64,000 nucleotides of DNA. It comes from Ostreococcus lucimarinus. Taxonomy: Eukaryota. The stretch lies in the NCBI GenBank assembly GCA_000092065.1, contig CP000597.1, one strand, 5' to 3'. The position numbers were made by a program, and so were the translations under genes. The stretch's first letter is position 1, and each line of letters begins with the position of its first letter. Positions 2,616 to 29,109 of the stretch are shown here, one piece after another. A model generated the notes under the pieces. That model saw only the letters and a list, made by a program, of their open reading frames with translations. It searched no databases and had not been told where the DNA came from.

Positions 2616-4031
2616 CTATTTCAAAATTTTATCCAGCTTCGCTTGCCAGAGTTCTTGTCTCGCGCACACCGCCTTTGGGTTGCTCACTTGCAGCTTCGAG
2701 AATTCAGACGAGTTGTTCAAGTTGATCCACGCCGCCAAAATCGTGCTCTTTTTCTCCAAAGCTTTCTTCGCGTCGACGTCGGTCAACGAATACATCAAAG
2801 TATCCCAAAGTGCGACGTTGATTTCGCCCGACGTGAAGAATTCACGGAAGAACAAACCATTGACGTCTTCCTCCGTGACTTTTTTGCCTTTGCCCACCGG
2901 CGACGTTGGGCGAAACGCGCAATCGCCGAAAATATCATACGCGAGCTTGATCGTGCGGTTAAACGATGCCTGCATGTCTCCTGCATCTTGAGGCGTCATG
3001 TCCTTGTTTTCGCGCATCTCCTCGTTCAACCAGCTCTTGATTGGGATGAAGAAACCCTCCGGCGCCGTTCGCATCATAGCAAAGTACCGCAAAACCAACT
3101 CCCGATCGCGCATGCGCAGATGCGGCGTCTTCGATCGATAAACTTTCAACAAATTCTCGTTTTTGACCAATTCTTCCAGCAAGTCGGTGTACATCCCTTG
3201 GTAGATGCAGTTTCTCAACTCTTGTTCGTTCAACTGCGTCGCGCCCATGTTTAAGCGCTCAAACACTTCAAACACAAAATCCGGCTGCGACGATCGTGAG
3301 ATCGTGTGCACGTTCAGAGGGTAGTCTAAAATCGTCTCTTGAAATCGTTCGTGCAAGTCCGTGAACGTCAACCCGTTCAAGTCTTCGTAAACCTCCAACC
3401 CGGTCAGCCTGAACGGAGATCCATCCGGAAATTCACACTGAATAAAGCTCCAAATCGACGTCAAACGCTGCTTGCCATCCACCACCTCTAGCTTCCCACT
3501 CTGCGTCTCGTGAAAGAACATCGTCGGTACGGGAATGTTTAAGATCAAAGACTCTATGAGCTTACTCGCCGTGCGAACCGTCCACACGTATTCTCTCTGA
3601 TAACTCGGTCGCAAGTTCACCTTGCCGCGATTAATCTTGTCGATGACACTATTCACCGTGAAATCCGCTTTTTGTATTTGCAGCGCCGCGCGATCGACCT
3701 TGAACAACGTTTCCTCTAAATCTGCGAACAAGTCCTCGTCCACGTCGTCCTGCGCGCTGGATTTTCGCGAAAACGCCGCGTTTCGCGGCGTCGCCTCGCT
3801 CGCGCCCACGTGTTCCCACAGCGAATCATCATTCGCGTCCGCTACCGCGCTCGCGGCGTCGCCCAGGGACGTCTCATTCCAGAGTTCTTTGTCTTGTTCG
3901 TCCCCGAGCAAGGCGCGAGGCGTTTGAGGGCGCGAGCGCCGCGTCGTTCGCGCCGATGTCCCGCGAGAGTGATTCTGGCGGGAAAGTGGTTTCACCGGCG
4001 TCGCGCGCGCGCTGCGCGCGTAAACCATCAT
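2616..4031 (-). CDS. DUF262 domain protein (ParB/sulfiredoxin-fold, GmrSD N-terminal-like)
   Basis: RPSYQREYVWT and VVDGKQRLTSI (the DGQQR motif) are diagnostic of DUF262. A low-complexity N-terminal ~120 aa precedes the domain. Confidence 0.6.
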   Translation of the reverse strand: MMVYARSARATPVKPLSRQNHSRGTSARTTRRSRPQTPRALLGDEQDKELWNETSLGDAASAVADANDDSLWEHVGASEATPRNAAFSRKSSAQDDVDEDLFADLEETLFKVDRAALQIQKADFTVNSVIDKINRGKVNLRPSYQREYVWTVRTASKLIESLILNIPVPTMFFHETQSGKLEVVDGKQRLTSIWSFIQCEFPDGSPFRLTGLEVYEDLNGLTFTDLHERFQETILDYPLNVHTISRSSQPDFVFEVFERLNMGATQLNEQELRNCIYQGMYTDLLEELVKNENLLKVYRSKTPHLRMRDRELVLRYFAMMRTAPEGFFIPIKSWLNEEMRENKDMTPQDAGDMQASFNRTIKLAYDIFGDCAFRPTSPVGKGKKVTEEDVNGLFFREFFTSGEINVALWDTLMYSLTDVDAKKALEKKSTILAAWINLNNSSEFSKLQVSNPKAVCARQELWQAKLDKILK

Positions 4032-4248: not shown

Positions 4249-5724
4249 TTAAGACGAACGACGCTCCAGGACGTCATCGTGGGCTAGAACTATGACTTTT
4301 GACGGACGACGACCGATCGAGACGGACGGCTCGCTGACGCCGAAGAGGACTTCGGAAAAGAGAGCCTCATCCACGCCATCGAGGGCGTCCATGTCGACGT
4401 CTTCGGGCCATTGCATGCGTCTGCGAAGTATGTCGAACCAGTTCGGGGCGAAGACGGCGGTGCGAGCGCGCTCAGACGTCTCCGCGGTGAGACGCGCTCG
4501 CTCGATGGCGTCGCGGAAATCGTGCAGGCGCGCGCGATAACGCTCCATCGCGACGATATCCTTTCGTCGGCGAGCCAACTGACCGTCGTAATAGTTTAAT
4601 AACGTTTGTTCACCTCCGTCGCGGGTGATAAGAGCGTTGACCTCGTGCGCCAGCTCGATGATGGTGCTCGCGGAGTCGATCGGATTGGCCATCAAATGCG
4701 GCGCATACGCGTACATCGTCATAGCGTCGTCCGCGTCCGACGTCACCGCGATCGAGAGCTCGAAACCGGGTGGAAAATTTTCCTTAGCGTACGCAAATAG
4801 CGAACGCAACACGCGAATCGACTCCTTGTACTCGTCGTCGTCGTACAAGAATTTCCCGTCTTCGTCGCCACCCCAGACGAGAGACAGCGACACCACGAAT
4901 TGATTGCACGCCTCTGGGCATCGTGATCGCCGAAAATCCAGCGCGGCGTCTACGATCAACTTTTCATTCCTTTCCATGAAGGCCACTTTATCGCTCAATC
5001 GCATGGGCATGACGATCGATCGCGGAAGCACCTCCGCCAGCGCCGATCGCGAGAGCGTTCGCTTGCTCCGCTCTCGCGCCGCCACCGTTGCCGCGAACGC
5101 CCGCACGCCCTCCGTTCGAGCCTCTAAAAACGAATACACTAACGTATCCTTATACATCTCCGGCTGATCCACGACCGCCGATCGCGCGTTCAACCACCCT
5201 TTCCCCCGCCGCTTGACGACGTTGCCCAACCGGTACCCGCCGCCGCGTTTATTCACCGGAATCTTCCAAAGCTCGCGCGCGTCCCGCACGACCAGCGCCC
5301 AAGCGCTCGCCGAACGCTCGACCGTGAAACTCGTGCTCTCGTACACCGGTCGAGGGTTCGCCAACCACGCGTCGACGTCGAATTCATCGGTTTCCGTCGC
5401 CTCGCTCGTCGTCGTCGCGTCAACACCCAAACGCGCCGCGTCAGGAACCGCGTCGCGGCGCACGTTCAGCCATCCCGCGTTCGAGACGCCGAGCGCGTGC
5501 GTTTCGCGCGGTGCGATCGGCGTCGTCGCGCGCGCCAGCGCGCACGCGCCGAGCGCACCGAGCGCGCCGAGTCCGACCGCGAGCGCCAACACCCTCGGCG
5601 TTCGCGCGCGCGCGTCGCTCGTGCGCGCGCCAAGTGACGCGCGTTCGACGTCGACGACGCGTTCGACGTCGCGCTCGAGCAGCGCGGCGTCTTCGCGCGG
5701 CGTCTCGGCGCGGGCGCCGGACAT
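4249..5724 (-). CDS. Hypothetical type II membrane protein (single N-terminal TM, large C-terminal domain)
   Basis: 491-aa ORF with a hydrophobic stretch LALAVGLGALGALGACALA near the N-terminus. The moderate-GC body reads as real coding sequence. I recognise no catalytic family. Confidence 0.35.
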   Translation of the reverse strand: MSGARAETPREDAALLERDVERVVDVERASLGARTSDARARTPRVLALAVGLGALGALGACALARATTPIAPRETHALGVSNAGWLNVRRDAVPDAARLGVDATTTSEATETDEFDVDAWLANPRPVYESTSFTVERSASAWALVVRDARELWKIPVNKRGGGYRLGNVVKRRGKGWLNARSAVVDQPEMYKDTLVYSFLEARTEGVRAFAATVAARERSKRTLSRSALAEVLPRSIVMPMRLSDKVAFMERNEKLIVDAALDFRRSRCPEACNQFVVSLSLVWGGDEDGKFLYDDDEYKESIRVLRSLFAYAKENFPPGFELSIAVTSDADDAMTMYAYAPHLMANPIDSASTIIELAHEVNALITRDGGEQTLLNYYDGQLARRRKDIVAMERYRARLHDFRDAIERARLTAETSERARTAVFAPNWFDILRRRMQWPEDVDMDALDGVDEALFSEVLFGVSEPSVSIGRRPSKVIVLAHDDVLERRSS

Positions 5725-5829: not shown

Positions 5830-8340
5830 CTAGAGATTACACGCCTCGGCACCGCACGCTTGGACGACGCTTGGTCGCTCGGTGCCGACGCCGTCGAACG
5901 GGACGTCGCTCGAGGCAACGAAGACGACTTGTTCGGGCGCAGACGCGCACTTGGGTAAGAATTCCAGGACTTCGCCGATGATGGTGGTGTGCTCGTAACC
6001 AGCGCGTTTTAGCGCTTCGACCGCGGCGTCGGCGCTGGCGCTCGGGAGGGAGGCTAACATCCCGCCCGCGGTTTGCGGATCAAAGAGAAGAGGGTAACGC
6101 GCGGCGCCGGATACGGCGGCTGGATTTGCGATGGCACGCGCCAAGCGCACATTGGCCGGCTGAAGCGAGCTCGTAATGCCGATTTCGACGCACTCTAACG
6201 CCCCAGGAAGCACTGGGAGGGCGTCCATGTCGAGCACGCACGCGGCGCTGCTTCCTTTGCACATCTCCACCAGGTGACCGAGCACGCCGAATCCCGTGAC
6301 GTCGGTGCACGCCGTGGCGCCGTGTTCAAACAAGGTTCGAGCGGCGACCGCGCTGGGCTGTCTCATAGAATCCAAGGCATTGGACACCCACCGTCCCTGC
6401 GCTTTTGATCGCATGTCCGCCGCGAATAGCGTGCCGGTGCCGATGGGCTTGGTGATGATGATTTTGTGACCGGCTCGCATGCCGCCCTTCTTCATCAACT
6501 TTTCCCGCGGTGCGGCGCCGTGCACGGAGAATCCCAGCGATAACTCAGCGCCCTCGGAACTGTGACCGCCGGCCAATCCACATCCAGCGTCGCGTAAAAT
6601 ATCGCACGCACCCGCCATCATTTGATACAACGTCTCCTCCACTTGCGATTCCAATCCGTACGGCACCGTCGCGATTGCAAGCGCGGCGTGCGGGTCGGCA
6701 CCCATGGCCCAGCAGTCTCCGAGCGCGTGCACGGCGGCAATTTGGCCGAAAATGTAAGGGTCGTCCACGAAAGCGCGGAAATAGTCCACGGTCTGCACGC
6801 CAACCATGCCGTCGGGCACAGAAACTACGGCAGCGTCGTCGGGTTGATCGATTCCAACCTCGACGTTCGGGTTCGTCGGAATCGGCTCGAGGCGCTTCAT
6901 CACGCGCGACAGCGTCGTGGCGCCCACCTTGGCGCCACAGCCACCACATCGCATCGGCACCGCGCGAATGGCGGCCATGGTATCTGAGCCCGCGGCGAGC
7001 GCCACTGCGGGTTGCTCGACCTCCGCTTCCTTCATTTCTGGTATCTCTTGATACATTTTCATCCATTTACGGTCAATTTTGTCCTTCCATCGCCACAGGC
7101 GCTCGCCCACGGGGCCGAGACCGCCGAGGGCGAGGTTGCCGTAAGACAACACCGCAGACTTACCGCCGGTGGTGATTAAACCCAAAAATAATTTTTGCGG
7201 GGTGAAATCGACTAAAGGTTCCCCCAGCAACGCACGACGTAGGTTCTTGTCCAACGGAGGCCCTTGACGCACCGCGAAGACTCCCGCCTTTGGTCGCGGA
7301 TGTTTCAGCACGTTTGCAACGTCCCCGGCGGCGAAGATGTTCTTGTGCGACGTCGACTCGAGCGTGGGATTGACTTCGATGAAACCGTTTGCGTCCAACG
7401 CCAAGTTCGTGGACTCGCGCAACCATTTGGCCGCGCCCGCTTGCGTGCACCAAATGCACTCGTCGGCGGAGACGACGCGACCGCTCTCGAGCGTCAATTT
7501 CCCTTGCTCGGCGGTAACCACGCCGTCGCCTTCGATGACGTCCACCCCCGACTCGGCGAAAATATTTAGAAACGTCTTGCGCACCCGCTTAGCGTGCGAC
7601 GGCATCAACGTCCCGCGCGTCACGAGCGTGAACTTGGCCAAGTTTTCATCCATGCCGCGCCGTTTCAACTCCTCTCGCGTGCGATGTCGCATCGAAAGCG
7701 CGAGTTCGGCGCCCCCAGCGCCTCCTCCGACGATCACAACCTCGCAATGCTTCCCCGATTCAATCACGCGTCGCAGCATTGCCTCCCATCGCGCGTTAAA
7801 CCCACATATCGGCTTCACCGGCGTCGCGAACGCCTCCGCGCCTCGCACGTCGCCCGCGCGCGGCGCGATGCCCACGTCAACGCTCGCCACGTCGAATCGC
7901 ACCCCCGGCCTCCCACTCTTCACGATCACTCGCCCATCGTCGTGATCGATCCCGATCGCTTCATCGTGCACGATTCTGAATCCTCCGTTCCGGCACAGCG
8001 GTTCTAAATCCACGCGCGTCTCGTCGTCTTCGTAGTGTCCCGCGACGGCGCCCGGCAGCATGCCCGAGTACGGCGTGTGCAGGTCTTTCGCGATCAGCGT
8101 CACCCGCACTCCCGGCATCGGCGTCATCGCGAGCGATTTCAGCACGTACACGTGCGCGTGACCGCCTCCGACGAGCACCAGGTCCTTGATCGTCGGCGTC
8201 GCCGCGCGCGAGCCGCGCATGTCTGCCGACGACGAAATTGCACTTTTTGTCCCGCGCGTCCCGAAGCGTTTTCTTCGCGACGCGGCGACGAACGACGACG
8301 GGACTCGACGCGGAAGCGCGTGCGAGCGCGCGCTCGGCAT
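5830..8340 (-). CDS. Pyridine nucleotide-disulfide oxidoreductase (NADH dehydrogenase-like) fused to selenophosphate synthetase (SelD/SPS), Cys-type
   Basis: N-terminal half: DLVLVGGGHAHVY and VVIVGGGAGGAELA (two Rossmann GxGxxG motifs), IFAAGDVA. C-terminal half: AIRAVPMRCGGCGAKVG (SelD glycine-rich loop; Cys aligns with E. coli Cys17) plus AIR-synthase-like folds. Start may be 8340 or the internal Met near 8223. Confidence 0.8.
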   Translation of the reverse strand: MPSARSHALPRRVPSSFVAASRRKRFGTRGTKSAISSSADMRGSRAATPTIKDLVLVGGGHAHVYVLKSLAMTPMPGVRVTLIAKDLHTPYSGMLPGAVAGHYEDDETRVDLEPLCRNGGFRIVHDEAIGIDHDDGRVIVKSGRPGVRFDVASVDVGIAPRAGDVRGAEAFATPVKPICGFNARWEAMLRRVIESGKHCEVVIVGGGAGGAELALSMRHRTREELKRRGMDENLAKFTLVTRGTLMPSHAKRVRKTFLNIFAESGVDVIEGDGVVTAEQGKLTLESGRVVSADECIWCTQAGAAKWLRESTNLALDANGFIEVNPTLESTSHKNIFAAGDVANVLKHPRPKAGVFAVRQGPPLDKNLRRALLGEPLVDFTPQKLFLGLITTGGKSAVLSYGNLALGGLGPVGERLWRWKDKIDRKWMKMYQEIPEMKEAEVEQPAVALAAGSDTMAAIRAVPMRCGGCGAKVGATTLSRVMKRLEPIPTNPNVEVGIDQPDDAAVVSVPDGMVGVQTVDYFRAFVDDPYIFGQIAAVHALGDCWAMGADPHAALAIATVPYGLESQVEETLYQMMAGACDILRDAGCGLAGGHSSEGAELSLGFSVHGAAPREKLMKKGGMRAGHKIIITKPIGTGTLFAADMRSKAQGRWVSNALDSMRQPSAVAARTLFEHGATACTDVTGFGVLGHLVEMCKGSSAACVLDMDALPVLPGALECVEIGITSSLQPANVRLARAIANPAAVSGAARYPLLFDPQTAGGMLASLPSASADAAVEALKRAGYEHTTIIGEVLEFLPKCASAPEQVVFVASSDVPFDGVGTERPSVVQACGAEACNL

Positions 8341-9682: not shown

Positions 9683-11683
9683 ATGCGCGTCGCGACGTCC
9701 GCGACGTCCGCGCGCGCGCTCGGCGCGCCGTCCCTCGCGCGCGCCGTCCCTCGCGCGCCGCGAATCGCGCGCGCGAACCGCGCGCGATGGATGAAGCGCG
9801 CGCGCGCGACGACGACGACGCGCGACGACGCGACGAGAGACGACGACGACGCGCGCGCGGCGACGATTCACGTGCCGTCGCTCGTGCGGCGCATGCGAGC
9901 GATCGCGCGGCGCGGATGCGCGATCATTCGAGAGGTGACGGAGGGCGGCGACGTCGGCGCGCGGGACAAGGGCGGCGCGCAGCGGGCGGACGGGACGTAC
10001 GTGGCGGACGCGCAGACGGAGGCGGATCGACGCGTGGAGGCGATGGCGATCGGTGCGCTGCGAGCGTTTTCGAAGGATTTGAATCTGGTGGCGGAGGAGA
10101 GCTTCGAGTGCGCGGCGACGATCGAGGCGTACGCGGGGGCGGGGGAGTGGACGACGATCGCGGATCTGGAGGCGGAGGACGAGGACGAGGCGGACGAGAC
10201 GTGGGCGCCGGAACTGAGAAAACCGATCGCGGCGTCGAGGGTGGCGGTGTATTGCGATCCGTTGGATGGGACGAACGAGTACGCGGCGGGTGAGCGGGAG
10301 GCGATCACGGTGCTGTTGGGGGTGGCGGTGGACGGGACGCCGCGCGCGGGGGTCATCGGACAGCCGTTTCACGAGCGCGGGAAGAGCGAGGATTTGGGTC
10401 GGGTGGTTTGGGGAGGCGCCGGCGTCGGCGTGCACGGATTGGACATCGCCGAAGACGCGCTGGCGCCGCCCGTGCCGCCGCACGGCGCGCACGTGGTGGC
10501 GGTGAATAGGAATTTACGAGAAAACAGACAGGCGCCCGTGCTCGAGGCGTTGCAATCGCGCGTGGACGTCGTCATCAGCGCCACGGGATTTCATTATTTG
10601 ATGCTCCTGGAGCGGCGCGCGCACAGCGCTTTATTACTTAGGAAAGCGTCAAAGAAGTGGGACACGTGCGCGGGGGAGGCGCTGCTGCGTGCGACGGGAG
10701 GAATCGTCACCGACACCGTCGGTCGGCGGTACGACTACTCGTACAACTTGAACGCGTTGCCGAATCTGAGCGGCATGGCGGCGAGTTTAGACGTCGGCAT
10801 GCACTGCGAGATGACGGGAATCATTCGAGACGTCATCGAACCGCTCGGTGATTATCCGTACGACGTCGATGATCCCTCCATCAGACCGAGCGTGCTCGAC
10901 GGCGTGCAAACGCCCGCCGGCGGCTGGCGCGCCGTCACGGTGGACGTCGGCGGATGTCTCATCGAGCCTCGCGAACGCGTCGCTGACGTGTACGCGCGCA
11001 CCGCGCGCTCGATCGGTATCGATTACGTAACCAGCGAAACCGCGTCGCACGATTTCAAAGAGGCTTTCGCCAAGTTTCGCGGCTCGGATGAACCGAACGC
11101 CATGCGATACTACGACGACGGGAAATCGTTTTGGCGTAAAGTCATCGCGCACGTGTTATCGCGCGGCGGGGCTCGAGCTTCCGCGGATGACGCCGTCGTG
11201 GAAACGATGTTGACGAAGCTGTATGAATATTACGAGCACCCGAGCGCGTGGTACGTCGCGCACGGCGCCGTCGACGCCATCTCCCGACTCCGAAGATCCG
11301 GCGTCAAAGTCGCCGTGGCGTCGAATTGGGATTCCAGGTTACCTAAACTTTTGGAATCCCTCGATTTGGCGCGACATTTCGACGCCATCGTCGTCTCAGC
11401 CATCGAAGGGTGCGAAAAGCCATCCAAAGAGTTCTTCACGAAGTGTCTCAACGCCGTGGACGTCCCCGCGTCTGCGACTTTACACGTCGGCGACGACGAG
11501 CGAAACGACGTCTCCGGCGCCGTCGCCGCCGATTTCGCGTGCGCCGTCCTGTGGGCGCCGCCGCGTCCCGCCACCGCTTCCAGTCCCGCCCCCGCCCCGC
11601 GCGTGCGAGACTTCAACGAGCTCACCGACGCGATATTATCCGCCAACCGCGCGCACGTCACCCACAAACACTATTTTCAGTAA
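9683..11683 (+). CDS. Inositol monophosphatase/PAP-phosphatase-like domain fused to HAD-superfamily hydrolase
   Basis: VAVYCDPLDGTNEY (IMPase metal-binding motif) in the N-terminal half. The C-terminal half has HAD motifs: TVDVGGCLIEP (motif I DxDGxL), VAVASNWD, and HVGDDERNDVSGA (motif IV). Confidence 0.65.
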   Translation: MRVATSATSARALGAPSLARAVPRAPRIARANRARWMKRARATTTTRDDATRDDDDARAATIHVPSLVRRMRAIARRGCAIIREVTEGGDVGARDKGGAQRADGTYVADAQTEADRRVEAMAIGALRAFSKDLNLVAEESFECAATIEAYAGAGEWTTIADLEAEDEDEADETWAPELRKPIAASRVAVYCDPLDGTNEYAAGEREAITVLLGVAVDGTPRAGVIGQPFHERGKSEDLGRVVWGGAGVGVHGLDIAEDALAPPVPPHGAHVVAVNRNLRENRQAPVLEALQSRVDVVISATGFHYLMLLERRAHSALLLRKASKKWDTCAGEALLRATGGIVTDTVGRRYDYSYNLNALPNLSGMAASLDVGMHCEMTGIIRDVIEPLGDYPYDVDDPSIRPSVLDGVQTPAGGWRAVTVDVGGCLIEPRERVADVYARTARSIGIDYVTSETASHDFKEAFAKFRGSDEPNAMRYYDDGKSFWRKVIAHVLSRGGARASADDAVVETMLTKLYEYYEHPSAWYVAHGAVDAISRLRRSGVKVAVASNWDSRLPKLLESLDLARHFDAIVVSAIEGCEKPSKEFFTKCLNAVDVPASATLHVGDDERNDVSGAVAADFACAVLWAPPRPATASSPAPAPRVRDFNELTDAILSANRAHVTHKHYFQ

Positions 11684-15492: not shown

Positions 15493-17582
15493 TTACACCG
15501 GGACGAATCGACGCGGATCTTCGGCGACGAAACGAAACGCACGCGGGCCGTCGAGCGCGTGCGAACGCACGGGCGAACCGACGTACCAAAACACCCAGCC
15601 CTTGCGCTCGCCACGCAAAATCGCCGCCGTCTCCGCGCCGCCGTCGTCGTACACGATCCTCAAAGATTTCAACTCCTCCCGCGCGGAATCATGCGCGTCG
15701 GCTCTCGAGGTAGCGGGTCGCGCGCCAAAGTGACGCCGGTTCGCAACCGAGTACCCGCTCTCTACGAACGCATGGACTTCTTCCGCGAGAAAAATCAAAC
15801 GCGCCGCCGCGCCGCGCGCACTTAAATTACGTCGACCATCGGGCGCGCACGCGGCGACGTACGCCCTCGCGGGTTCCGCGTCTCGTAACACATCACCGAA
15901 TCGTAACAATGCGTTGAACGCGATTTCGACGCGCACAAATTCGTCGAGCGATCCCTCGCGGAATATTCCAGACAGAAATTCTTCCTCCGTCGCCGCGCCG
16001 ACGCGCCAAAGTTCGGTGAGGAATTCGGCGGCTCCGGCGATGGTTTCGTCGTCGCTCGAGTCGAGCAAAGCGATAACGCGACGACAAATGTCGTCCCGAA
16101 ATGGCATGGCGTCGCTCAAAGTGGCGTACATCGCCGCGTAACTTTTTTGACACACGGCTGTCGTCACGATTCGCTCCGCGTAAGCGTCAAAGACGGAGAC
16201 GCCTTCAATCGCGGTCAACATTTGACGCGTGGCACGTGGCGCGGTGTCCGGCGTCGAACGATTCAGCGCGGCGTTGAACGCGGCGACCGGATTGCTCACC
16301 GTCGTCGTCGTCGTCGCCTGCAACTTTCGCCAATCAGAGTCGTAATCGCGCGAATCGTCGCCGTCGACGGTCCATCGGTCCTCGTCCGTCTTTGGTAACA
16401 CGACAACCTTCTTCAGCCCACGTCGTTTCTCCACCCCCTTTGCAGTCGGGTCTTTGACACGCTCAAACGCCAAGAGGCAGCACTTTTCAAAACTCGCAAC
16501 GACGGATTCTTTCGCCGTCTTGATTCGGACGGGTAATCCGAATTCGTGATAACCGTCGCAGACGTGGCGGAGCAATGCCTCCTTGACGCCGGCGCCGCGG
16601 AATTCGGGAAGCACGCAGAGTCGATCCACTTGTGCAGTGGTGAACACAGTATCTGGAGAAGAAAACGGATACGCCACCGTCGCGGTTTCGTCGCTCTGCA
16701 AAGCGCTCATCGCGACGTAGCCGACGGCGACGCCGGAATCCGTCAATTCGAGCTCGTAATACACGCCGTGCGGCTGCGGCGGCGCGGCGACGTAGTGATG
16801 CGCCGAGTACCCCCCGGAACACCAGCGTTCGGGCGTGGACGCCTTCAATCGCGCGGTCACGCCTTCGCGCAGCGTCACGTTGAACCCGCGCGTTTCAACG
16901 AAGGCGCGAACGGCGTCGCTGACATCCGCGAGTTGCTCCGCCATGGACAGCGTCAAGCGCTGTATAGGATCGCCATCGATCACCAATCGTTCGCGAGCAC
17001 GCGCGATGAGTACGTCACCGTCGTCTTCGACGCGATCGGCGATGATGGCGATCGCGCGCGCGTGCTCTCGATGCCACGTTCTGCTCGCGCGCTCCTCTTC
17101 GTCTTCGTCTTCCTCCCCAGACCGCGCGCGTCGACTCGGATACAGCCTTCGCGCCGGGCAACGCGCGACCACCGCGTTAAACAACAGATTCGCCCTCAAG
17201 CACGACGCCTTCGTCGGCGCGGCACCGCGCGCGAGCGCGATGCCGACGTCTACGCCCTTCGGCAACGCGCTTCGAAACGCCGCAAACGTCTGCGTCGCCC
17301 GCGTCGTCCCCGTCCCTCCCAATCTCGCGCACACCACCACCACCCGCGTCGTCGACGTCCTCAAAACCTCCGCGCACACCGCTTCAACCATTTTCCTGCA
17401 CTCCCGCGCGCTCTTATGATCGCCTCGCCAGCGATACGTCCCGTCGCTCGTCTCCGCCGGTTTCGTCCTCGTCAGCGTCGTCGTCGTCGTCTCCCCGACC
17501 TCTGGAAACACGCGCGTCGCCCACGCCCGCGCCTCCGCCTGATCGCTCGCGCCGAAGCACACCACGTGCGCGCGCGGCGCCA
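15493..17582 (-). CDS. GNAT-family N-acetyltransferase domain protein with helical C-terminal domain
   Basis: VDRLCVLPEFRGAGVKEALLRHVCDGYHEFGLPVRI is a GNAT motif A (Q/RxxGxG/A). I trimmed the track ORF from 19161 to the Met at 17582 (GLERVMAPRAHVVCFG). The upstream 530 aa are Ser/Arg low-complexity and overlap the + strand gene at 18058. Confidence 0.5.
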
Positions 17583-18057
17583 TCACGCGTTCCAATCCAA
17601 CGCCGAATCGTCGTCGTCGTCGTCTCGCGCTTCGTCGTCGTCGCCGTCGTCGCCGTCGTCTCTTCTCCCCTCGCTCGCGCGCGCGCGAAAGCACTTCGCG
17701 AGGTGCGCGAGCCCTATCGTCCGGCACTCCTCGCTCCACGCCTGCGCGAGCTGCGCGCGCTCGCGCGCCGTGAGCGGCACGACGACGCGGCGTCGCGCTC
17801 GAACGGCGTCGCTGAATTCGCGTTCGAGTTCGAATTCGTCCTCGAATCGCGCCGCCGTTCGAGCGCGGCGCCCGCGTCGCGCCGCGCGCGTCGCGCGCGC
17901 TCTCGCGCGCGTCCCCGCGGGCGCGCTCGAGCGCGTCGCGGCGCGCATGCGCGGTCGCGCGCGTTTTAATGACGCTCGAAGCGGCGCGACGCTTCGAGGC
18001 GGTGACGCGAATCGTCACTCGACGTCGCGCGCGCGCCCGATCGCGCCGCGCGCGCAT

Positions 18058-21000
18058 GGACGACGCGCGCGATGCCCTCGACGCGCTCCTGACGGACGCG
18101 CGCGCGCAGCGAGCGCTCGCGGACGACGCGAGGTGCTTTCCCGAGTGTCGAGAATCGCGCGCGCGATCGAAATCGCTTCGCGAAATCGTCGCCGCGTGCG
18201 AAGCGCGACCGCGGTTGGGCGTCACGGACGCGCGAACGCGATTCAACGCGTCGCGCGCGACGGCGGACGCGACGCACGGCGCGCGAGACGACGACGACCT
18301 CGATGGGATGGACCTCGGCGACGGCGCGGGTGTTGGGAAGACGACGACGACGACGACGACGCGAGAGGTCGAGCGCGAGCGCGCGACGACGCGCGATGAG
18401 GACACGGGAACGAAATTGTGGATGACGTGCGATGGGATCGTGTTCGTGGTGACGGCGGAGGCGTCGATGGGCGAGCGCGGGGGGGGGCGGGAGGCGAAGG
18501 CGAAGGCGAACGCGCCGGCGACGAGCGAGGACGCGACGACGGGCGAAGAGAACGAAAAGACGACGCAATGGCCGGAACCGAAGCGGAGGAACGAAGGAGG
18601 GAGCGGCGATAAATCGTTGGTCGGCGCGGTGAAGGCGCTGAGAGGGACGCGGTTGGAGGGCGTGGTGGACGAGATCGCGTCCAACGTCGAGCGGTTGGGG
18701 GCGAGCGGAATTTTTGTGGTTTGCGAACGCGTGGGGGATTCGGATAACGTGCGCGCGTCCAAAATTCGCGATGCGCTCGTGAAATTGACGGGCGTGGTTG
18801 GGAACAACGTGTTTTGCGTGCCCGAGGGCGCTCGCGAGGGGCTGAGCGCGGTGGATGGGGGACACGTGGACGCTGAAACCGGCGGATGGTTTAGCGGATC
18901 GAGCGGGAAGAAGACGGTGGCGAAAGATTTCCAGCTTCGTTTAGATAATTGGCAATTAGAGTGGCGGAACAGTCGAGCGAAAAAACTCAGAAACGCTGAA
19001 TACGAAGCTATACGCCAGGAGACGCAGTTTTGGGCGATGTTTCTTCGCAAAGACGACGAGTGGCTCGCCGAGGAGCGCGAACGTGAGGAGGCGCGGAAAA
19101 AGGACAACGAAGCGGACGCAAAGGGCGATGAAGTGAGCGCCGACGGCGCCGAAACGTCCAAGATGGATAAAGTGGATAAAGAATCACTCGCGCGCGTCCA
19201 TGAAACGGCTTCGTTGCTGGCGATTCACAAATTCCTCAAGACGGCGATCGAGGGCGTGCCCATGGCTGGCATTCCCGGCGCCCCGGAGATGGCTTGGAAA
19301 CATTTTCAAAAATATCCCGAGCCCGAACGTGCACCGCTCATGAATGCCGTGTACTCACACAACGTCATTCAATACGCCGCGGCGCTCATGTTCGCTTGGC
19401 TGACGCCCGGACCCGTGGGCGCGCACGCGACGCATTTCATGAATCGCTTTCGTATTTCTCTCTTCTTCGCGTGTCTGTGCGGATCGTCGCCGTTAGATCC
19501 GACAGTGATCACCACCGCCATCGCGCTCGCGGCAGGGACGGATAAGGAAAATTTGCAGATGTCCCCTGTTATTCGTTTCATGAAAGACGACGTTGAGAGT
19601 GAGGTTTCGAGCGAGGACGAGGCGTCGGAGGACGAGGACGCGAAGCCGCGGATGGACATCGATGGCGTCGTGGATGTCAAATCGGCTTCGACATCGTCGC
19701 TCGATGAATCTTGGGGATCGCTCAATTCAATGTCGTCGTTAATGCAAGACGCTCTCGACCGCGCCGTCGCGGAAGGGAACGATCTCAAACGTCGAGCGTC
19801 AAAAATGCTGGTTGATTTCTTAAATTCTGGCAACCGAACCGTGCTGAAGAGTCGTCGACGAGCGATGAAAGCGGCGTGCGACGCAAAGGCTGACGCTATG
19901 CAACAAAAGAAAATGTCTTACGACGAAGCGGAGAAGATGGCGAAGAAGGTCTTCGATAGGGAGTTTTCTCGAGATGCAACAAAGCGCTTGACGACGCTCA
20001 TATTTGGACCGAAATACTTTGCGTCGGTCACGGCGGATATAACGCAAGTGATCAACTCTTCGTTTACGACGTACATCGCGATGTCGTCGATCGATATTTT
20101 CTTACCCATGGTCGAAGAACACGAAGAGAAGATGCGGTTGAAGAAGGCGGAAGAGGAAGAACAGGCGAAAGCCGCCGCCGCCGCCGCCGCCGCCGCCGCA
20201 ACAGCGGCGCTGACGACAAAGAATGGCTTCATTCACGTGACGCTCGAAGTCGAGAAAGATTGCGTGCGATGCACGCTCACCCCGACACCGTTACCGACGA
20301 CGGTTGAAAAGTTGTTAAGCACGTCCAAGATCATCAGTGAAAAGACTGTGGCGTTGACGGCGAGCACGGCCGAGGCGGTATCGTCGAGCGCTGAAGCCGT
20401 GTCCACGTGGGCGTCAAAAACCACGGACTCGGTGCGAAAAGAAACCAATCGCGGTCTAGAGCTCGCTCAAGAAAACGCCAAGGCGAGCATGGAAAGCGCA
20501 AAAAGTGGTTTGGAAAACGTCGGTGCGTTCTTTGACAGAACGAAGACGACACTGAATTCGACCATAACGTCGAGCGCGACCTCCATCACCACCGTCTTTT
20601 CGTCGTTGAAGACGGGCGGCGACGCGAGTGCGAGCGATGGTAAGGTTTCTATCGACGTTCGTTCACTTCCGGTTCAGCGTATTGCCGCCGCGCTGGAAAA
20701 CGAAGAAGTCGATCGCGTTATCGCTGACTCAAATTTGGTGCTCAAGATGCCCGCGGATTTGATCCTCTCCAAGGCGCTCGGTGATATTTACAAGGAAGTG
20801 CGAGCAGACGCCTCGGCGTTCGTCAAATACAAGGATGACGAGACCGTCTTGCGCGCTATCCAACGCCTGCTCGAGCTCGTCGTGGAAAGCGGTGACGAAG
20901 TCGCGATCAACGAGCTCATCAAACTCGGCGTCGTTCCGCGACCGAAATCCGCGGCGCAAGCCAAACTCGAGGCGTGGCGAGAAAATTTCCGCAAGCGTGA

Positions 21001-21241
21001 ATCTGAACCCGCGAGTGCGATAAAGGACGACGCAAAGTCTAGTGAAGCAGCTGAGACACCGCCTCCATCGACTGCTTCGAAAATCATCCCAGAAGCCTTG
21101 CGATCCGCGTTCGCCGCGCCGCTGACGCTCTTTTCGCGCGCGTCGGCGTCCGCGCCGTCCGTCGACGCCGTCGACGCCGCCCCGTCGCCCGACGCCAAGA
21201 TCGCCGTCGATGCCAAGGCCAAGGCGAGCGATTCGGCGTGA
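18058..21241 (+). CDS. Large hypothetical protein (coiled-coil and low-complexity, poly-Ala tract)
   Basis: The long ORF has moderate-GC coding-like composition from about 18400 onward. (GCC)n encodes AAAAAAAAA at about 20170-20205. No family recognised. Start assigned to MDDARDAL. Confidence 0.35.
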
Positions 21242-27585: not shown

Positions 27586-28797
27586 TCAACACGAAAGAAG
27601 GCGCTGCCGCCACTTGCGCTCGTACGTTCTCTTCGCGTGCGCGTACACGGCGAGCGACTTGCGCAGGTTGCGACGCAAATGCGCCATCATGTCTTCGTTC
27701 GCCACGTGCCTGTCGTAGAGGCGCTGCTGGTGCGCATCGAGCTCGGGCGCTTCGTTGTGCTGCGCAAAATTGGCTAAAAGCGTCGCGTTGAGCCGCGCAA
27801 AATCGGGTAAAGTTGTGAGCTTTTCTAAACCGTCGTCGAGTTTCTCCGTCAACAGAAATTTAAAGCACGGGTCGTCCAAATTCGCGATCGCCGCAGCGAC
27901 TTGAGCGTCTTTGTTCTCCCCACCGCCCGGTGCGAGGACGTGCAACCAATTATCACCGCCCAAGTAATCGTGCCACTCTACGAGGTTCATGGCGCACTCG
28001 CCCTTGTCCTTCATCGCCTTGTTCCACAGCCGACGATTTTCAGCCCCGGCCAAGCACGAGTACTTGTAGTGACTTAAAAACCGCTCGACTGGGTCTCTTA
28101 AGATTGTGATGTACGCACACGGGGCGTCAACGACCTCGCACAGTCCCATGCCGTAGGAGCCTTTGCTAAAAATCCGCGCCCCTGATTCATACATCTTCCG
28201 CAAACGATCCACGCCAAAGTACTCCGCGGGTTCGCCCGTGGCAAAGTGCCGCCGCGTCGCCGCGTAATTTTCTCTCGTCGTATCGACCAAAGGCCACGTG
28301 ATCCACTGCGCGATCGACTCATGATCGTGAGGAAATAATTCTTCGCCCAGGAACGCCTCCTGCTTCGGCTTACGATTCACCCTGCGTTCCACCTGTCGCA
28401 ACACCGAGTGAAAAAACGTCCCACCCGTCTTCGGCACGTGCAAAAAGTTGTAAAACAGCACTCGATTCGCGTGCGTCTGCTTCACCGACTTCGCCTTCCT
28501 CGGAATCTCGTAATATTTACTCAGATCACCGACGTTCAATTCCCGTCCGAACGCCTCGACTTCCTCGCGTTCCGCGAGCGCGCCGCCGCGTCGGTGCGCC
28601 CAATCCGCCCTCGCGCTCGCCCCGACGAGGCACGCCGCGACCGCGCACGCGCCGACGACCAGCCTCGCGCTCGCCGCGCCGCGCGTTCGATCGACCGCGA
28701 GCTTCGCCGCCGTCGTCTCCGCGTCGTCCGACGCGCGCTCGACGTCGCGAGACGCGCGCAGGAGCGGTTCGGCGTCGCCGCGCTCAACACCCATCGC
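27586..28797 (-). CDS. Golgi-type (type II membrane) PAPS sulfotransferase, Sulfotransfer_2/HS6ST-like
   Basis: FLHVPKTGGTFFHSVL matches the 5'-PSB motif. ILRDPVERFLSHYKY matches the 3'-PB motif RDPxxRxxSxY. An N-terminal TM (LVVGACAVAACLVGASA) follows the Met at about 28797. The track ORF extends to 29058. Confidence 0.6.
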   Translation of the reverse strand, partial: AMGVERGDAEPLLRASRDVERASDDAETTAAKLAVDRTRGAASARLVVGACAVAACLVGASARADWAHRRGGALAEREEVEAFGRELNVGDLSKYYEIPRKAKSVKQTHANRVLFYNFLHVPKTGGTFFHSVLRQVERRVNRKPKQEAFLGEELFPHDHESIAQWITWPLVDTTRENYAATRRHFATGEPAEYFGVDRLRKMYESGARIFSKGSYGMGLCEVVDAPCAYITILRDPVERFLSHYKYSCLAGAENRRLWNKAMKDKGECAMNLVEWHDYLGGDNWLHVLAPGGGENKDAQVAAAIANLDDPCFKFLLTEKLDDGLEKLTTLPDFARLNATLLANFAQHNEAPELDAHQQRLYDRHVANEDMMAHLRRNLRKSLAVYAHAKRTYERKWRQRLLSC

Positions 28798-29030
28798 GCT
28801 CGGCGCGCGACGACGACGACGACGACGCTCGGCGCGCGACGAAGCGTTCGCTCGCCGTCGTTCTCGAGTTTCGTTCGCGCGCGCGAGAGAGAGGCGAAGA
28901 GTGCGGCGCGCCGAAGAAAGACAGACAGGCGGGGTGTTGCGCAGAAATTGCGATCCGAGACGCGCGAGCGGCGCCGCGAGAGCGACGACGACGGACGAAG
29001 ACGCGCGATACGCCGGGAAGCGACGAGAAA

Positions 29031-29109
29031 ACGACGAGACTGGGATGAAAGAATACAAAGAATACAGTCAGGACGACGAGACTGGGATGAAAGAATACAA
29101 AGAATACAG
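29031..29109. repeat. Tandem direct repeat, 38-bp unit x2 (period 41), AT-rich
   Basis: acgacgagactgggatgaaagaatacaaagaatacagt appears twice, separated by cagg. It sits between the sulfotransferase 5' end and the DTW gene 3' end. Confidence 0.8.

What the first reader, a model, noticed from the sequence alone, without database searches (positions are those of the whole stretch)
5830..8340. FAD/NAD(P) pyridine nucleotide-disulfide oxidoreductase fused to Cys-type selenophosphate synthetase
The N-terminal ~440 aa carry two Rossmann dinucleotide-binding motifs (LVLVGGGHAHVY and VVIVGGGAGGAEL) typical of NDH-2/Ndi1-like flavoproteins. The C-terminal ~390 aa are a SelD/SPS fold whose glycine-rich loop, RCGGCGAKVG, uses Cys, not Sec. 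The oxidoreductase is positioned to deliver reduced selenium (or sulfur) species directly to SelD. This is a rare architecture, and the Cys form avoids the Sec-decoding requirement. The N-terminal 40 aa are Arg/Ser-rich, possibly an organellar leader.
Basis: partly seen in the sequence, partly recalled or inferred. Interest (0 to 1): 0.55.

Follow-up and report, generated by a model that had tools for sequence, protein, structure and literature searches.

The report
Known flavoprotein–selenophosphate synthetase fusion gene
This is a marine green picoalga's gene for the enzyme that activates selenium (selenophosphate synthetase), joined to an NADH-dehydrogenase-like flavoprotein; the fusion is real, but it is common and has been described since 2008, so the finding is ordinary.

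Summary
One uninterrupted 836-codon ORF on the minus strand (5830-8340) encodes an NDH-2-like FAD/NAD(P)H flavoprotein (residues 53-430) joined to a complete bacterial-type Cys-SelD (464-792).

NCBIfam has a model for this N-domain, TIGR03169 "Nterm_to_SelD". It scores 436 bits (cut-off 310), and selD TIGR00476 scores 298 bits (cut-off 125).

The architecture is not rare. All 120 best database homologues share it, and at least 578 stretches in bacterial species genomes encode it. It is described in Zhang 2008, Mariotti 2015 and Liang 2019, including the Ostreococcus case, the CxxC signature (here C465/C468), the bacterial origin and the selenium-reductant idea.

The window is eukaryotic nuclear DNA, probably from a Micromonas-like alga.

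The Arg/Ser-rich 40-residue "leader" is undecided. M41 aligns with the bacterial start Met, and the non-coding frame upstream is just as Arg-rich.

Things I did not find in the papers searched:
- 49 of the 80 closest bacterial fusions sit beside selenoneine genes (senB/senA), so they are SenC-type.
- The NDH-2 quinone motif AQxAxQ is replaced by an invariant GVFAVR.
- Mamiellophyceae-like proteins carry a C-terminal tail that usually ends in a flexible CxxxxC.

Verdict: already known, low interest.

The parts
5830..8340 (-). Whole ORF: 836 codons plus TAG stop (5830-5832). Flavoprotein-SelD fusion gene, single exon.
   Evidence: The identical protein is found on independent metagenome contigs.
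8221..8340 (-). Codons 1-40: Ser/Arg/Ala-rich N-terminal extension. Either a transit peptide or translated 5' UTR; undecided.
   Evidence: Poorly conserved against the 82%-identical sister species. pLDDT is below 50. GC2 is 0.72, against a maximum of 0.65 in the gene body. Among 14 population copies there are 0 synonymous and 2 non-synonymous variants.
8218..8220 (-). M41: alternative start codon, equivalent to the start Met of the bacterial homologues.
   Evidence: Invariant column in alignment A1. The 796-aa and 794-aa gene calls start here.
7051..8184 (-). NDH-2-like FAD/NAD(P)H flavoprotein domain (residues 53-430; TIGR03169 'Nterm_to_SelD').
   Evidence: TIGR03169 scores 435.8 bits against a cut-off of 310, over the full profile. 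Pfam Pyr_redox_2 matches. Foldseek gives TM 0.86 to C. thermarum NDH-2.
8146..8181 (-). First Rossmann motif, LVLVGGGHAHVY (residues 54-65); presumed FAD-binding.
   Evidence: G58, G59, G60, H61 and H63 are invariant in 49 fusions. It aligns with the FAD GxGxxG of NDH-2.
7702..7740 (-). Second Rossmann motif, VVIVGGGAGGAEL (residues 201-213); presumed NAD(P)H-binding.
   Evidence: It aligns with the NADH GxGxxG of NDH-2.
7261..7302 (-). HPRPKAGVFAVRQG (residues 347-360): occupies the place of the NDH-2 quinone motif AQxAxQ. Both Gln are replaced (V354, R358), and there is a cluster of invariant basic residues (R349, K351, R358).
   Evidence: Alignment to 4nwz; invariance in A2.
6952..7050 (-). 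Inter-domain linker (residues 431-463).
   Evidence: It lies between the TIGR03169 and TIGR00476 matches. pLDDT is low at 440-448 and 461-470. The frame is continuous.
5965..6951 (-). Selenophosphate synthetase (SelD) domain, residues 464-792 (AIRS plus AIRS_C).
   Evidence: TIGR00476 scores 297.5 bits against a cut-off of 125. E. coli SelD matches at 6.4e-50 and A. aeolicus SelD at 3e-40. Foldseek TM is 0.76-0.87.
6922..6951 (-). Gly-rich catalytic loop R-C465-G-G-C468-G-A-K471-V-G. C468 is the Cys/Sec position and K471 the catalytic Lys. C465 completes the fusion-specific CxxC.
   Evidence: Alignment to E. coli SelD residues 14-20. The loop is invariant in 49 fusions. CxxCGAK is present in 141 of 148 retrieved homologues. 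Both Cys are TGT codons. The CxxC signature is described in PMC2398784.
5833..5964 (-). Clade-specific C-terminal extension (residues 793-836), absent from bacterial fusions. Residues 793-820 are modelled as packed; the last ~12 are flexible.
   Evidence: Alignments A1 and A2 and the tail listing. pLDDT is about 92 for residues 801-820, 64 for 821-830 and 36 for 831-836.
5839..5856 (-). C829-G-A-E-A-C834: a CxxxxC pair in the flexible C-terminal tail.
   Evidence: Conserved in the Micromonas-like clade and in most of the 62-66%-identity clade; missing in three of those clusters.

Best explanation
This is the nuclear gene for the selenophosphate synthetase of a Mamiellophyceae-like marine picoalga. 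It is the known bacterial-type 'NADH-dehydrogenase-like/SelD' fusion, called Ndh-SelD, NADH-SPS or SPS clade I.

Shown here:
- A single ORF joins an NDH-2-fold flavoprotein domain, with two dinucleotide-binding motifs, to a complete Cys-type SelD.
- The SelD keeps the catalytic Cys/Lys loop and the four metal/ATP-binding aspartates.
- The extra Cys465 gives the CxxC signature seen in the 49 aligned fusions and in 141 of 148 retrieved homologues.

Inferred from established knowledge of SelD and of Mamiellophyceae selenoproteomes:
- The C-domain makes selenophosphate from reduced selenium and ATP. This feeds selenocysteine synthesis on tRNA-Sec for the alga's large selenoproteome.

Inferred mechanism of the N-domain (my estimate is about 50% likely):
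- NAD(P)H reduces FAD.
- The flavin then reduces an oxidised or thiol-bound selenium species at the flexible C465-x-x-C468 loop. This could be a selenotrisulfide or selenenylsulfide, Se(0), or a selenite-derived species. The product is selenide, generated in the kinase active site.
- The flavin acceptor is not a quinone. The NDH-2 quinone motif is replaced by an invariant basic motif, and the domain has no invariant redox cysteine of its own.
- The fusion would therefore be a self-contained reductase-kinase that does not release toxic free selenide.

The gene came from bacteria. There, more than half of the closest relatives serve selenoneine (sen) clusters as SenC.
For: Identity:
- TIGR03169 scores 436 bits (cut-off 310) and TIGR00476 scores 298 bits (cut-off 125).
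- E. coli SelD matches at 6e-50, against human SPS1 at 2e-15, so the SelD is bacterial-type.
- the catalytic residues and CxxC are invariant.
- the AF2 model has pLDDT 85 and pTM 0.83; the N-half has the NDH-2 fold (TM 0.86) and the C-half the SelD fold.

Prior description:
- PMC2398784: the Ndh-SelD fusion, the CxxC motif, and its presence in Ostreococcus.
- PMC2432076: the reductant hypothesis.
- PMC4561486: all NADH-SPS fusions are Cys-type, occur in genomes with selenoproteins, and reached protists by HGT.
- PMC6627142: SPS clade I = Pyr_redox_2 + AIRS + AIRS_C in most Viridiplantae; Mamiellophyceae have the full Sec machinery.
- PMC2375036: Ostreococcus has 26-29 selenoproteins, and SPS2 is not among them.

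Eukaryotic context:
- HSA, PWWP, RCC1, PIP5K, ubiquilin, Sen54.

Non-quinone acceptor:
- AQxAxQ is replaced by GVFAVR.
- no invariant Cys in the N-domain.

Coupling of the halves:
- The fusion is kept at 50-54% identity between algae and proteobacteria.
- Bacterial copies sit beside a putative selenate ABC importer in 23 of 80 loci, and beside senB or senA in 49 of 80. This fits an enzyme that starts from imported oxidised selenium.
Against: - I found no biochemical test of the flavoprotein domain in the papers searched.
- Sen-cluster SenC was assayed only with sodium selenide plus DTT, so a reductase role is untested. I also did not establish that the assayed V. paradoxus SenC is the fused form.
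- The model contains no FAD and I had no coordinates, so I could not measure the distance from the flavin to the CxxC loop. That loop has low confidence.
- The window holds no Sec-machinery, tRNA-Sec or SECIS element, so use for Sec in this particular organism rests on literature for the lineage.
- I could not confirm the organism by name.
- Asn87 of E. coli SelD is His538 in all fusions; the effect is unknown.
Confidence: 0.85

Rival explanations
1. The N-domain is a true NDH-2. It would be a membrane-associated NAD(P)H:quinone oxidoreductase whose fusion only tethers SelD to a membrane or links it to the quinone pool, with no direct selenium chemistry.
For: The best sequence and fold matches are bacterial NDH-2 enzymes. 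A long Trp/Lys-rich helix (415-430) lies where NDH-2 has its C-terminal amphipathic anchor.
Against: The quinone motif AQxAxQ is not kept: both Gln are replaced by invariant V354 and R358. The invariant residues of helix 415-430 (W416, K419, D423, M427) are a mix of charged and hydrophobic residues spaced 3-4 apart, which I read as one helix face. That suggests a specific interface rather than a generic membrane anchor. pTM 0.83 suggests a fixed two-domain body.
Confidence: 0.1
2. The N-domain works like sulfide:quinone reductase or flavocytochrome c, in the oxidative direction. It would convert selenide (or sulfide) into a cysteine-bound perselenide (Se0) that is handed to SelD.
For: SQR and FCSD flavoproteins are detectable relatives (3hyv at 4e-06, 3vrd, 1fcd; TM about 0.75). 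An SQR structure with bound selenide exists in the PDB (3sz0).
Against: No cysteine is invariant in the N-domain across 49 fusions, and C116 is below 90%. The catalytic Cys pair that SQR chemistry needs is therefore absent. The quinone motif is also not kept. NDH-2 is the closer fold (0.86 against 0.75).
Confidence: 0.07
3. The flavoprotein only keeps SelD's own C465/C468 pair reduced, as a built-in disulfide reductase against oxidative inactivation in oxygenic or aerobic hosts. It would not reduce selenium itself.
For: The CxxC motif was found in all fusions and is rare in unfused SelD (PMC2398784). The fusion is enriched in aerobic marine and aquatic organisms.
Against: This is not exclusive with selenium reduction, because a Cys-S-Se-S-Cys adduct and a disulfide are reduced by the same chemistry. 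Bacterial copies co-localise with a putative selenate importer, which points to substrate supply.
Confidence: 0.2
4. In the alga the enzyme (also) acts as a SenC. It would supply selenophosphate to a selenosugar/selenoneine pathway rather than only to selenocysteine synthesis.
For: 49 of the 80 closest bacterial fusions have senB and/or senA within 6 kb. They give the same NCBIfam pattern as the algal protein.
Against: No SenA, SenB or EgtD relative is found in the window. Eukaryotic fusions form their own clade (NJ tree). Mamiellophyceae have a complete Sec machinery that needs an SPS. I found no report of sen genes in algae.
Confidence: 0.08
5. The two halves are separate genes, or the fusion is an assembly or annotation artefact.
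For: None found.
Against: The frame is continuous through the linker. The same ORF is present on many independent contigs. Full-length collinear alignment to bacterial fusions shows a conserved junction.
Confidence: 0.01

Closest known systems
Ndh-SelD / NADH-SPS fusion (SPS clade I; NCBIfam TIGR03169 + TIGR00476), as described by Zhang et al. 2008, Mariotti et al. 2015 and Liang et al. 2019
   Same: Same domain order, same CxxC-GAK loop, Cys-type and bacterial-like SelD. It occurs in green picoalgae (Ostreococcus is explicitly cited). It passes both NCBIfam cut-offs.
   Different: Nothing essential. This copy and its Mamiellophyceae-like relatives add a ~44-residue C-terminal extension, usually ending in CxxxxC, and possibly a ~40-residue N-terminal extension.
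SenC, the selenophosphate synthetase of bacterial senABC selenoneine clusters (Kayrouz et al., preprint 10.1101/2022.04.13.486033)
   Same: The closest bacterial homologues (50-54% identity) lie next to senB or senA and have the same two-domain architecture and the same NCBIfam score pattern. The chemistry is the same: selenide plus ATP gives selenophosphate.
   Different: No sen genes lie near the algal gene. The algal clade is separate in the NJ tree. The expected downstream user in the alga is Sec synthesis. The SenC papers I read treat it as a plain 'selD homolog' and do not mention the flavoprotein domain.
E. coli / Aquifex aeolicus SelD (PDB 3u0o, 2yye)
   Same: Same fold and same catalytic residues (Cys17, Lys20, Asp51, Asp68, Asp91, Asp227 equivalents).
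   Different: These are unfused. E. coli has G14 where the fusion has C465, so it lacks the CxxC. Asn87 is replaced by invariant His538 in the fusions.
Type II NADH:quinone oxidoreductase (NDH-2; C. thermarum 4nwz, S. aureus 5na1, yeast Ndi1)
   Same: Two-Rossmann flavoprotein fold (TM 0.86) and the TPxxxxLPG-type and GD motifs.
   Different: About 20% identity. The quinone-binding AQxAxQ motif is replaced by GVFAVR within an invariant HPRPKAGVFAVRQG. The domain is followed by SelD rather than ending in a membrane anchor.
NCBIfam TIGR04369 'oxidoreductase/SelD-related fusion protein (fusion_not_SelD)'
   Same: Same two-domain layout; full-length alignment at E 6e-133.
   Different: It scores 444 bits against a cut-off of 700, so it is not a member. 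The SenB-linked proteobacterial fusions also score below the cut-off, at about 460.
High-molecular-weight thioredoxin reductase with a C-terminal redox tail (comparison from my own knowledge, not tested here)
   Same: A pyridine-nucleotide flavoprotein carrying a flexible C-terminal tail with a Cys pair (here C829xxxxC834). Such a tail could shuttle electrons or selenium.
   Different: No N-terminal CxxxxC redox centre, no dimerisation domain and a different flavoprotein subfamily. The tail Cys pair is missing in three related clusters.

Membership tests
Ndh-SelD fusion (SPS clade I) | N-terminal TIGR03169-type pyridine nucleotide-disulfide oxidoreductase domain | tested here: met
   435.8 bits against a cut-off of 310; profile positions 1-365 of 365 at residues 53-430.
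Ndh-SelD fusion (SPS clade I) | C-terminal SelD domain in the same polypeptide | tested here: met
   TIGR00476 scores 297.5 bits against a cut-off of 125 at residues 464-767. It is a single ORF with no stop.
Ndh-SelD fusion (SPS clade I) | CxxC motif in the SelD active-site loop, with Cys rather than Sec | tested here: met
   C465-G-G-C468, both TGT codons. Invariant in 49 fusions. The signature is described in PMC2398784.
Selenophosphate synthetase (SelD/SPS2), functional enzyme | Catalytic Cys/Sec and Lys in the Gly-rich N-terminal loop, plus four metal/ATP-binding Asp | tested here: met
   C468, K471, D502, D519, D542 and D680 align with E. coli C17, K20, D51, D68, D91 and D227. All are invariant.
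Selenophosphate synthetase (SelD/SPS2), functional enzyme | ATP-dependent formation of selenophosphate from reduced selenium | not testable with these tools
   Needs an enzyme assay. Shown for V. paradoxus SenC in the literature; I did not establish whether that protein is the fused form.
Selenophosphate synthetase (SelD/SPS2), functional enzyme | Co-occurrence with a selenium-using pathway in the same genome (tRNA-Sec/PSTK/SepSecS/EFSec/SBP2, SelU, or sen genes) | tested here: inconclusive
   None are found in the 64-kb window. The whole genome was not available. The literature says Mamiellophyceae have the full Sec machinery.
Type II NADH:quinone oxidoreductase (NDH-2) | Two GxGxxG dinucleotide-binding motifs and the NDH-2 fold | tested here: met
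   Motifs at residues 54-65 and 201-213. TM 0.86 to 5kmp and 0.85 to 5na1.
Type II NADH:quinone oxidoreductase (NDH-2) | Quinone-binding AQxAxQ motif (motif definition from my own knowledge) | tested here: not met
   The C. thermarum sequence TAQIAIQHG aligns with KAGVFAVRQG. Both Gln are replaced by invariant V354 and R358.
Type II NADH:quinone oxidoreductase (NDH-2) | C-terminal amphipathic membrane anchor | tested here: inconclusive
   Helix 410-431 occupies that place, but it has an invariant mixed charged/hydrophobic set of residues and is followed by SelD.
Sulfide:quinone reductase / flavocytochrome c sulfide dehydrogenase | Conserved catalytic cysteines next to the flavin | tested here: not met
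   No invariant Cys anywhere in residues 41-463 across 49 fusions.
Class I disulfide reductases (GR, TrxR, LipDH, MerA) | Redox-active CxxxxC in the FAD domain and a C-terminal dimerisation domain | tested here: not met
   There is no such Cys pair. Pfam finds only Pyr_redox_2 and no Pyr_redox_dim. NCBIfam scores for these families are 18-26 bits, against cut-offs above 400.
NCBIfam TIGR04369 (fusion_not_SelD) | Whole-protein score at or above the curated cut-off of 700 bits | tested here: not met
   444.5 bits.
SenC (selenoneine cluster selenophosphate synthetase) | Encoded next to senB and senA | tested here: not met
   HMMs built from 44 SenB, 24 SenA and 15 EgtD neighbours find nothing in the six-frame window. 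The rest of the genome was not testable.
SenC (selenoneine cluster selenophosphate synthetase) | Same sequence family as the sen-linked fused selD genes | tested here: met
   50-54% identity over about 89% of the length. The NCBIfam pattern is identical.

The most novel reading that the evidence does not exclude
The flavoprotein half is not a quinone reductase. It would be a dedicated NAD(P)H:selenium reductase whose acceptor site (invariant HPRPKAGVFAVRQG in place of AQxAxQ) acts on selenium held by the SelD CxxC loop. In Mamiellophyceae it would be assisted by a TrxR-like flexible C-terminal CxxxxC arm. The same fused enzyme would be the unrecognised form of SenC in most selenoneine clusters. 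One enzyme type would then carry oxidised marine selenium into both selenoproteins (picoalgae) and selenoneine (bacteria, and conceivably algae).
Probability: 0.25. Interest if true: 0.5.

Novelty: already known. Interest (0 to 1): 0.18.

Why it matters
As posed, the finding adds nothing new. The fusion, its CxxC signature, its presence in green picoalgae, its bacterial origin and the 'built-in selenium reductant' idea are all in the literature, and NCBIfam has a dedicated model for the N-domain.

What stays open is the biochemistry of the flavoprotein half; I found no experimental test of it in the papers searched.

Three observations here sharpen that question:
- the quinone motif is lost;
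- more than half of the closest bacterial relatives are SenC-type and often sit next to a putative selenate importer;
- the algal clade has an extra Cys-pair tail.

If the domain proves to be a selenium reductase, it would explain how abundant marine microbes turn selenite or selenate into selenophosphate without releasing free selenide. That would bear on the marine origin of selenoneine.

Tried and rejected
- **tRNA-Sec and SECIS in the window.** ARAGORN and Rfam (gathering thresholds) found nothing on the whole window. In 64 kb this says little.
- **Sec-machinery and sen genes in the window.** Pfam and NCBIfam scans of about 30 window ORFs found none.
- **SenA, SenB and related genes in the window.** HMMs built from the bacterial neighbours (SenB, SenA, EgtD, selenate-binding protein, permease, MerA-like) found no hit in the six-frame window, apart from a trivial flavoprotein match to the gene itself.
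- **Naming the organism.** Cluster members and encoding contigs carry only metagenome names. The AlphaFold-DB fold library that would have given species names was unavailable. 'Micromonas-like' therefore remains an inference.
- **Leader tests.** Codon-position GC, cross-species conservation, population variants and AF2 confidence all fit either a fast-evolving transit peptide or a translated 5' UTR. None decides it.
- **Literature on the flavoprotein domain or on selenoneine in algae.** Nothing found. One search was too loose and uninformative.
- **SQR-like and class I disulfide reductase readings.** Rejected, because the N-domain has no invariant cysteine.
- **TIGR04369 membership.** Rejected on score.
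- **CaaX or PTS1 reading of the C-terminal CNL.** Considered and dropped. The Cys is at position -3, and the sister clade continues past the Cys pair.


Full report
**Observation**

The minus strand of the window carries one uninterrupted ORF at 5830..8340: 836 codons, ATG start, TAG stop. All quoted motifs are present:
- LVLVGGGHAHVY at residues 54-65
- VVIVGGGAGGAEL at residues 201-213
- RCGGCGAKVG at residues 464-473

Both loop cysteines are TGT codons, so the enzyme is Cys-type and not Sec-type.

Domain evidence:
- Pfam finds Pyr_redox_2 (52-360), AIRS (501-609) and AIRS_C (622-792).
- NCBIfam TIGR03169, literally named 'Nterm_to_SelD', scores 435.8 bits (cut-off 310) over its whole length at residues 53-430.
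- NCBIfam selD equivalog TIGR00476 scores 297.5 bits (cut-off 125) at residues 464-767.
- The related model TIGR04369 'fusion_not_SelD' scores 444 bits, below its 700-bit cut-off.

The same protein, called from M1 (836 aa) or from M41 (796 aa), is on record from many marine metagenome contigs. The ORF is therefore not an artefact.

**Whose gene it is**

Other ORFs in the window carry eukaryotic nuclear domains:
- HSA, PWWP and KH
- RCC1 repeats
- PIP5K
- ubiquilin
- Sen54
- PheRS beta

The DNA is about 62% G+C, gene-dense and apparently intron-poor. It has no tRNA and no Rfam hit. The local gene order is Inositol_P/HAD, DnaJ, SelD fusion, 491-aa unknown, GmrSD_N, Peptidase_S10. That order is conserved on contigs of a sister species whose fusion protein is 82% identical. 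The nearest named eukaryotic homologue is from Prasinoderma coloniale, at 56% identity. I infer a Mamiellophyceae-like picoalga, probably Micromonas. No tool returned a species name, and the AFDB fold library that might have done so was unavailable.

**The SelD half**

The best solved relatives are bacterial: E. coli SelD at 6.4e-50 and A. aeolicus SelD at 3e-40. Human SPS1 and a trypanosomatid SPS reach only about 1e-15, so the SelD is of bacterial type.

From the printed alignment to E. coli SelD, the equivalences are:

| This protein | E. coli SelD |
|---|---|
| C468 | Cys17 (the Cys/Sec position) |
| K471 | Lys20 |
| D502 | Asp51 |
| D519 | Asp68 |
| D542 | Asp91 |
| D680 | Asp227 |

All of these are invariant in 49 fusion proteins.

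Two positions separate fused from unfused SelDs:
- C465 aligns with Gly14 of E. coli and creates the CxxC motif.
- His538 replaces Asn87.

CxxCGAK is present in 141 of 148 retrieved homologues.

**The flavoprotein half**

By sequence and by fold it is closest to bacterial type II NADH dehydrogenases. The AF2 model has pLDDT 85 and pTM 0.83.

| Structure | Foldseek TM |
|---|---|
| C. thermarum NDH-2 | 0.86 |
| S. aureus NDH-2 | 0.85 |
| FSP1 | 0.77 |
| SQR | ~0.75 |
| yeast Ndi1 | ~0.65 |

It is not an NDH-2 proper. In the alignment to C. thermarum NDH-2, the quinone motif AQxAxQ (TAQIAIQHG) faces KAGVFAVRQG. Both glutamines are replaced, by V354 and R358. These residues lie inside the motif HPRPKAGVFAVRQG, most of whose positions are invariant in all 49 fusions and which includes three basic residues.

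No cysteine is invariant anywhere in the N-domain. This excludes the catalytic-cysteine chemistry of SQR/FCSD and of class I disulfide reductases.

At the end of the second Rossmann strand, NDH-2 has an acidic residue (INVEAAP) where this protein has TLVTRGT. That would allow NADPH use; this is an inference only.

**How common it is, and what is already published**

- All 120 best hits in the 5.8-billion-protein collection have the same three Pfam domains.
These include Marinobacter, Halomonas, Polaromonas, Limnohabitans and many Rhodospirillaceae and Burkholderiales.

The literature already describes this fusion:
- Zhang et al. 2008 (PMC2398784) described 'Ndh-SelD' fusions. They noted them in Ostreococcus, reported the CxxC motif in all of them, and found that they make up about 40% of Cys-SelDs in ocean metagenomes.
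- Zhang et al. 2008 (PMC2432076) proposed that the oxidoreductase reduces a selenium compound for SelD.
- Mariotti et al. 2015 (PMC4561486) found NADH-SPS to be the commonest SPS fusion in bacteria and protists. It is always Cys-type, always occurs in genomes with selenoproteins, and was transmitted to protists by horizontal transfer.
- Liang et al. 2019 (PMC6627142) defined SPS clade I (Pyr_redox_2 + AIRS + AIRS_C) as the form of most Viridiplantae.
- Mamiellophyceae have the complete Sec machinery and large selenoproteomes. Ostreococcus has 26-29 selenoproteins, and SPS2 is not one of them.

'Rare architecture' is therefore wrong. The mechanistic suggestion is the published, still untested, hypothesis.

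**The N-terminal 40 residues**

They are Ser/Arg/Ala-rich with a single acidic residue, and AF2 models them as disordered.

Against reading them as a leader, or at least not in favour:
- M41 aligns with the initiator Met of every bacterial homologue and is retained in all ten eukaryotic sequences of alignment A1, amid otherwise variable residues.
- Gene callers pick M1 or M41 for identical DNA.
- The reading frame stays open and equally Arg-rich for about 40 codons upstream of the first ATG in this and the sister species. The composition may therefore just reflect GC-rich DNA.
- GC2 of the extension (0.72) exceeds that of every 40-codon window of the gene body, whose maximum is 0.65.

In favour of a leader:
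- The only ATGs between the upstream DnaJ stop and M41 are M1 and M41, both in frame.
- Other eukaryotic lineages, including apparently lower-GC ones, also have 40-100-residue extensions.
- Among 14 population copies, the extension is about ten times more variable than the body (0 synonymous, 2 non-synonymous) but less variable than the 100 nt upstream, which has 13 variable sites.

This cannot be settled without transcript or protein data. Dual initiation is possible.

**Bacterial context (beyond the brief)**

I clustered the ORFs within 6 kb of the 80 closest bacterial fusions and named the recurrent families with NCBIfam:

| Neighbouring family | Loci (of 80) |
|---|---|
| SenB, selenosugar synthase (TIGR04348) | 44 |
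| SenA, selenoneine synthase (NF041186) | 24 |
| SenA or SenB | 49 |
| Putative selenate ABC substrate-binding protein (TIGR04553) | 23 |
| ATPase of that transporter | 22 |
| Permease of that transporter | 19 |
| EgtD | 15 |
| MerA/Lpd-like 720-aa flavoprotein | 11 |

No selA, selB or selU family recurs.

More than half of the closest bacterial relatives are thus the SenC of selenoneine clusters. They give the same NCBIfam pattern as the algal protein. The SenC papers I could read call it a 'selD homolog', assay it with sodium selenide plus DTT, and never mention a flavoprotein domain. A search for SenC plus flavin found nothing relevant.

In a quick NJ tree the eukaryotic fusions form one clade outside the sampled proteobacterial radiation. 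HMMs of SenA, SenB and EgtD find nothing in the window. There is therefore no evidence that the alga makes selenoneine; the question needs the whole genome.

**Clade-specific additions**

The Micromonas-like sequences and the 62-66%-identity clade (probably Ostreococcus/Bathycoccus-like, my inference) extend about 44 residues beyond the bacterial C-terminus.
- Residues 793-820 (including APEQVVFV) are modelled confidently.
- The last dozen residues are flexible. They carry C829-x4-C834, which is conserved in both clades except in three clusters.
- Eukaryotic sequences also have C298, and usually C295, in ECIWCTQAG where bacteria have EILWVTAAG.

A flexible Cys-pair tail on a pyridine-nucleotide flavoprotein recalls the C-terminal redox arm of large thioredoxin reductases. 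That comparison is from memory and is a lead, not a test.

**Most likely mechanism**

Shown: a complete Cys-SelD is fused to an NDH-2-fold flavoprotein with two dinucleotide sites.

From established SelD biochemistry: the C-domain phosphorylates reduced selenium with ATP to give selenophosphate. In this lineage that product is needed by SepSecS for Sec-tRNA.

Inferred, with about 50% confidence:
- NAD(P)H reduces FAD.
- The flavin reduces selenium bound to or near the mobile C465-x-x-C468 loop, not a quinone. The bound form could be a selenotrisulfide, a selenenylsulfide or Se(0).
- Selenide is therefore generated inside the kinase site.
- The basic HPRPK...R motif may bind an anionic selenium species.
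- The algal C-terminal Cys pair may help the transfer.

Rivals:
- a genuine quinone-linked NDH-2 (disfavoured by the lost quinone motif);
- an SQR-like oxidative route to perselenide (disfavoured by the absence of conserved cysteines);
- a self-repair reductase for the CxxC disulfide (compatible with, and hard to separate from, the main model);
- a SenC role in the alga (no evidence).

**Verdict**

This is a standard member of the known Ndh-SelD / SPS clade I family. Novelty: already known. Interest is low (0.18). The residual value lies in the uncharacterised flavoprotein domain, its link to sen clusters, and the algal Cys-pair tail.

Noticed in passing
L017-L096 (80 bacterial loci), ±6 kb around the fusion gene: 49 of the 80 closest bacterial Ndh-SelD fusions sit next to the selenoneine genes senB (44 loci) and/or senA (24 loci). 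They are often joined by egtD (15) and a putative selenate ABC importer (23). The fused enzyme is therefore the SenC of many sen clusters, a point not made in the SenC papers I read.
   Followed up: yes
window 5833-5964 (-), residues 793-836; CxxxxC at 5839-5856: There is a C-terminal extension absent from bacterial fusions. It ends in a flexible C829-x4-C834 pair, conserved in Micromonas-like and most Ostreococcus/Bathycoccus-like homologues but lost in three clusters. It is reminiscent of the redox tail of large thioredoxin reductases.
   Followed up: partly
window 7261-7302 (-), residues 347-360: HPRPKAGVFAVRQG replaces the NDH-2 quinone motif AQxAxQ. Both Gln are gone, and three basic residues are invariant. 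This suggests a non-quinone, possibly anionic, acceptor.
   Followed up: partly
window 6715-6738 (-), residue H538: Asn87 of E. coli SelD (also Asn in A. aeolicus SelD) is an invariant His in all 49 fused SelDs. It is a second fusion-specific active-site-region signature besides CxxC.
   Followed up: partly
window 7435-7461 (-), residues 294-302: A eukaryote-only cysteine pair, C295-I-W-C298, lies in a beta-strand of the flavoprotein domain. Bacterial fusions have EILWV at this place.
   Followed up: no
window 4249-5724 (-): A 491-aa ORF lies immediately downstream of the fusion gene on the same strand. It has no Pfam or NCBIfam match, but it is conserved in position in the sister species.
   Followed up: partly
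window 45276-51374 (+): A 2032-aa ORF combines two rhodanese domains, a sulfotransferase domain, an adenylation domain, a carrier domain, a terminal reductase and a zinc alcohol dehydrogenase. This is an unusual NRPS-like megaenzyme with sulfur-transfer modules.
   Followed up: no
window 2616-4031 (-): A GmrSD_N (DUF262, restriction-endonuclease-type) domain protein sits in a eukaryotic nuclear context. It is also present at the syntenic place in the sister species.
   Followed up: no
window 9683-11683 (+): A 666-aa fusion of an inositol-monophosphatase-family domain with a HAD hydrolase domain, conserved in the sister species.
   Followed up: no
window 59049-61352 (-) and 27586-29058 (-): A sodium:sulfate symporter family transporter with a long N-terminal extension, and a weak sulfotransferase-like ORF. 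These are sulfur or oxyanion handling genes in the same window, not adjacent to the fusion gene.
   Followed up: no
e.g. L063:4576-6735 (-), 11 bacterial loci: A 720-aa MerA/dihydrolipoyl-dehydrogenase-like flavoprotein with a ~230-residue N-terminal extension recurs near the bacterial fused selD genes.
   Followed up: no
window-wide, e.g. 15493-19161 (-) vs 17969-21241 (+): Long overlapping antisense ORFs are frequent because of the high G+C content. ORF length alone is not evidence of a gene in this window.
   Followed up: no
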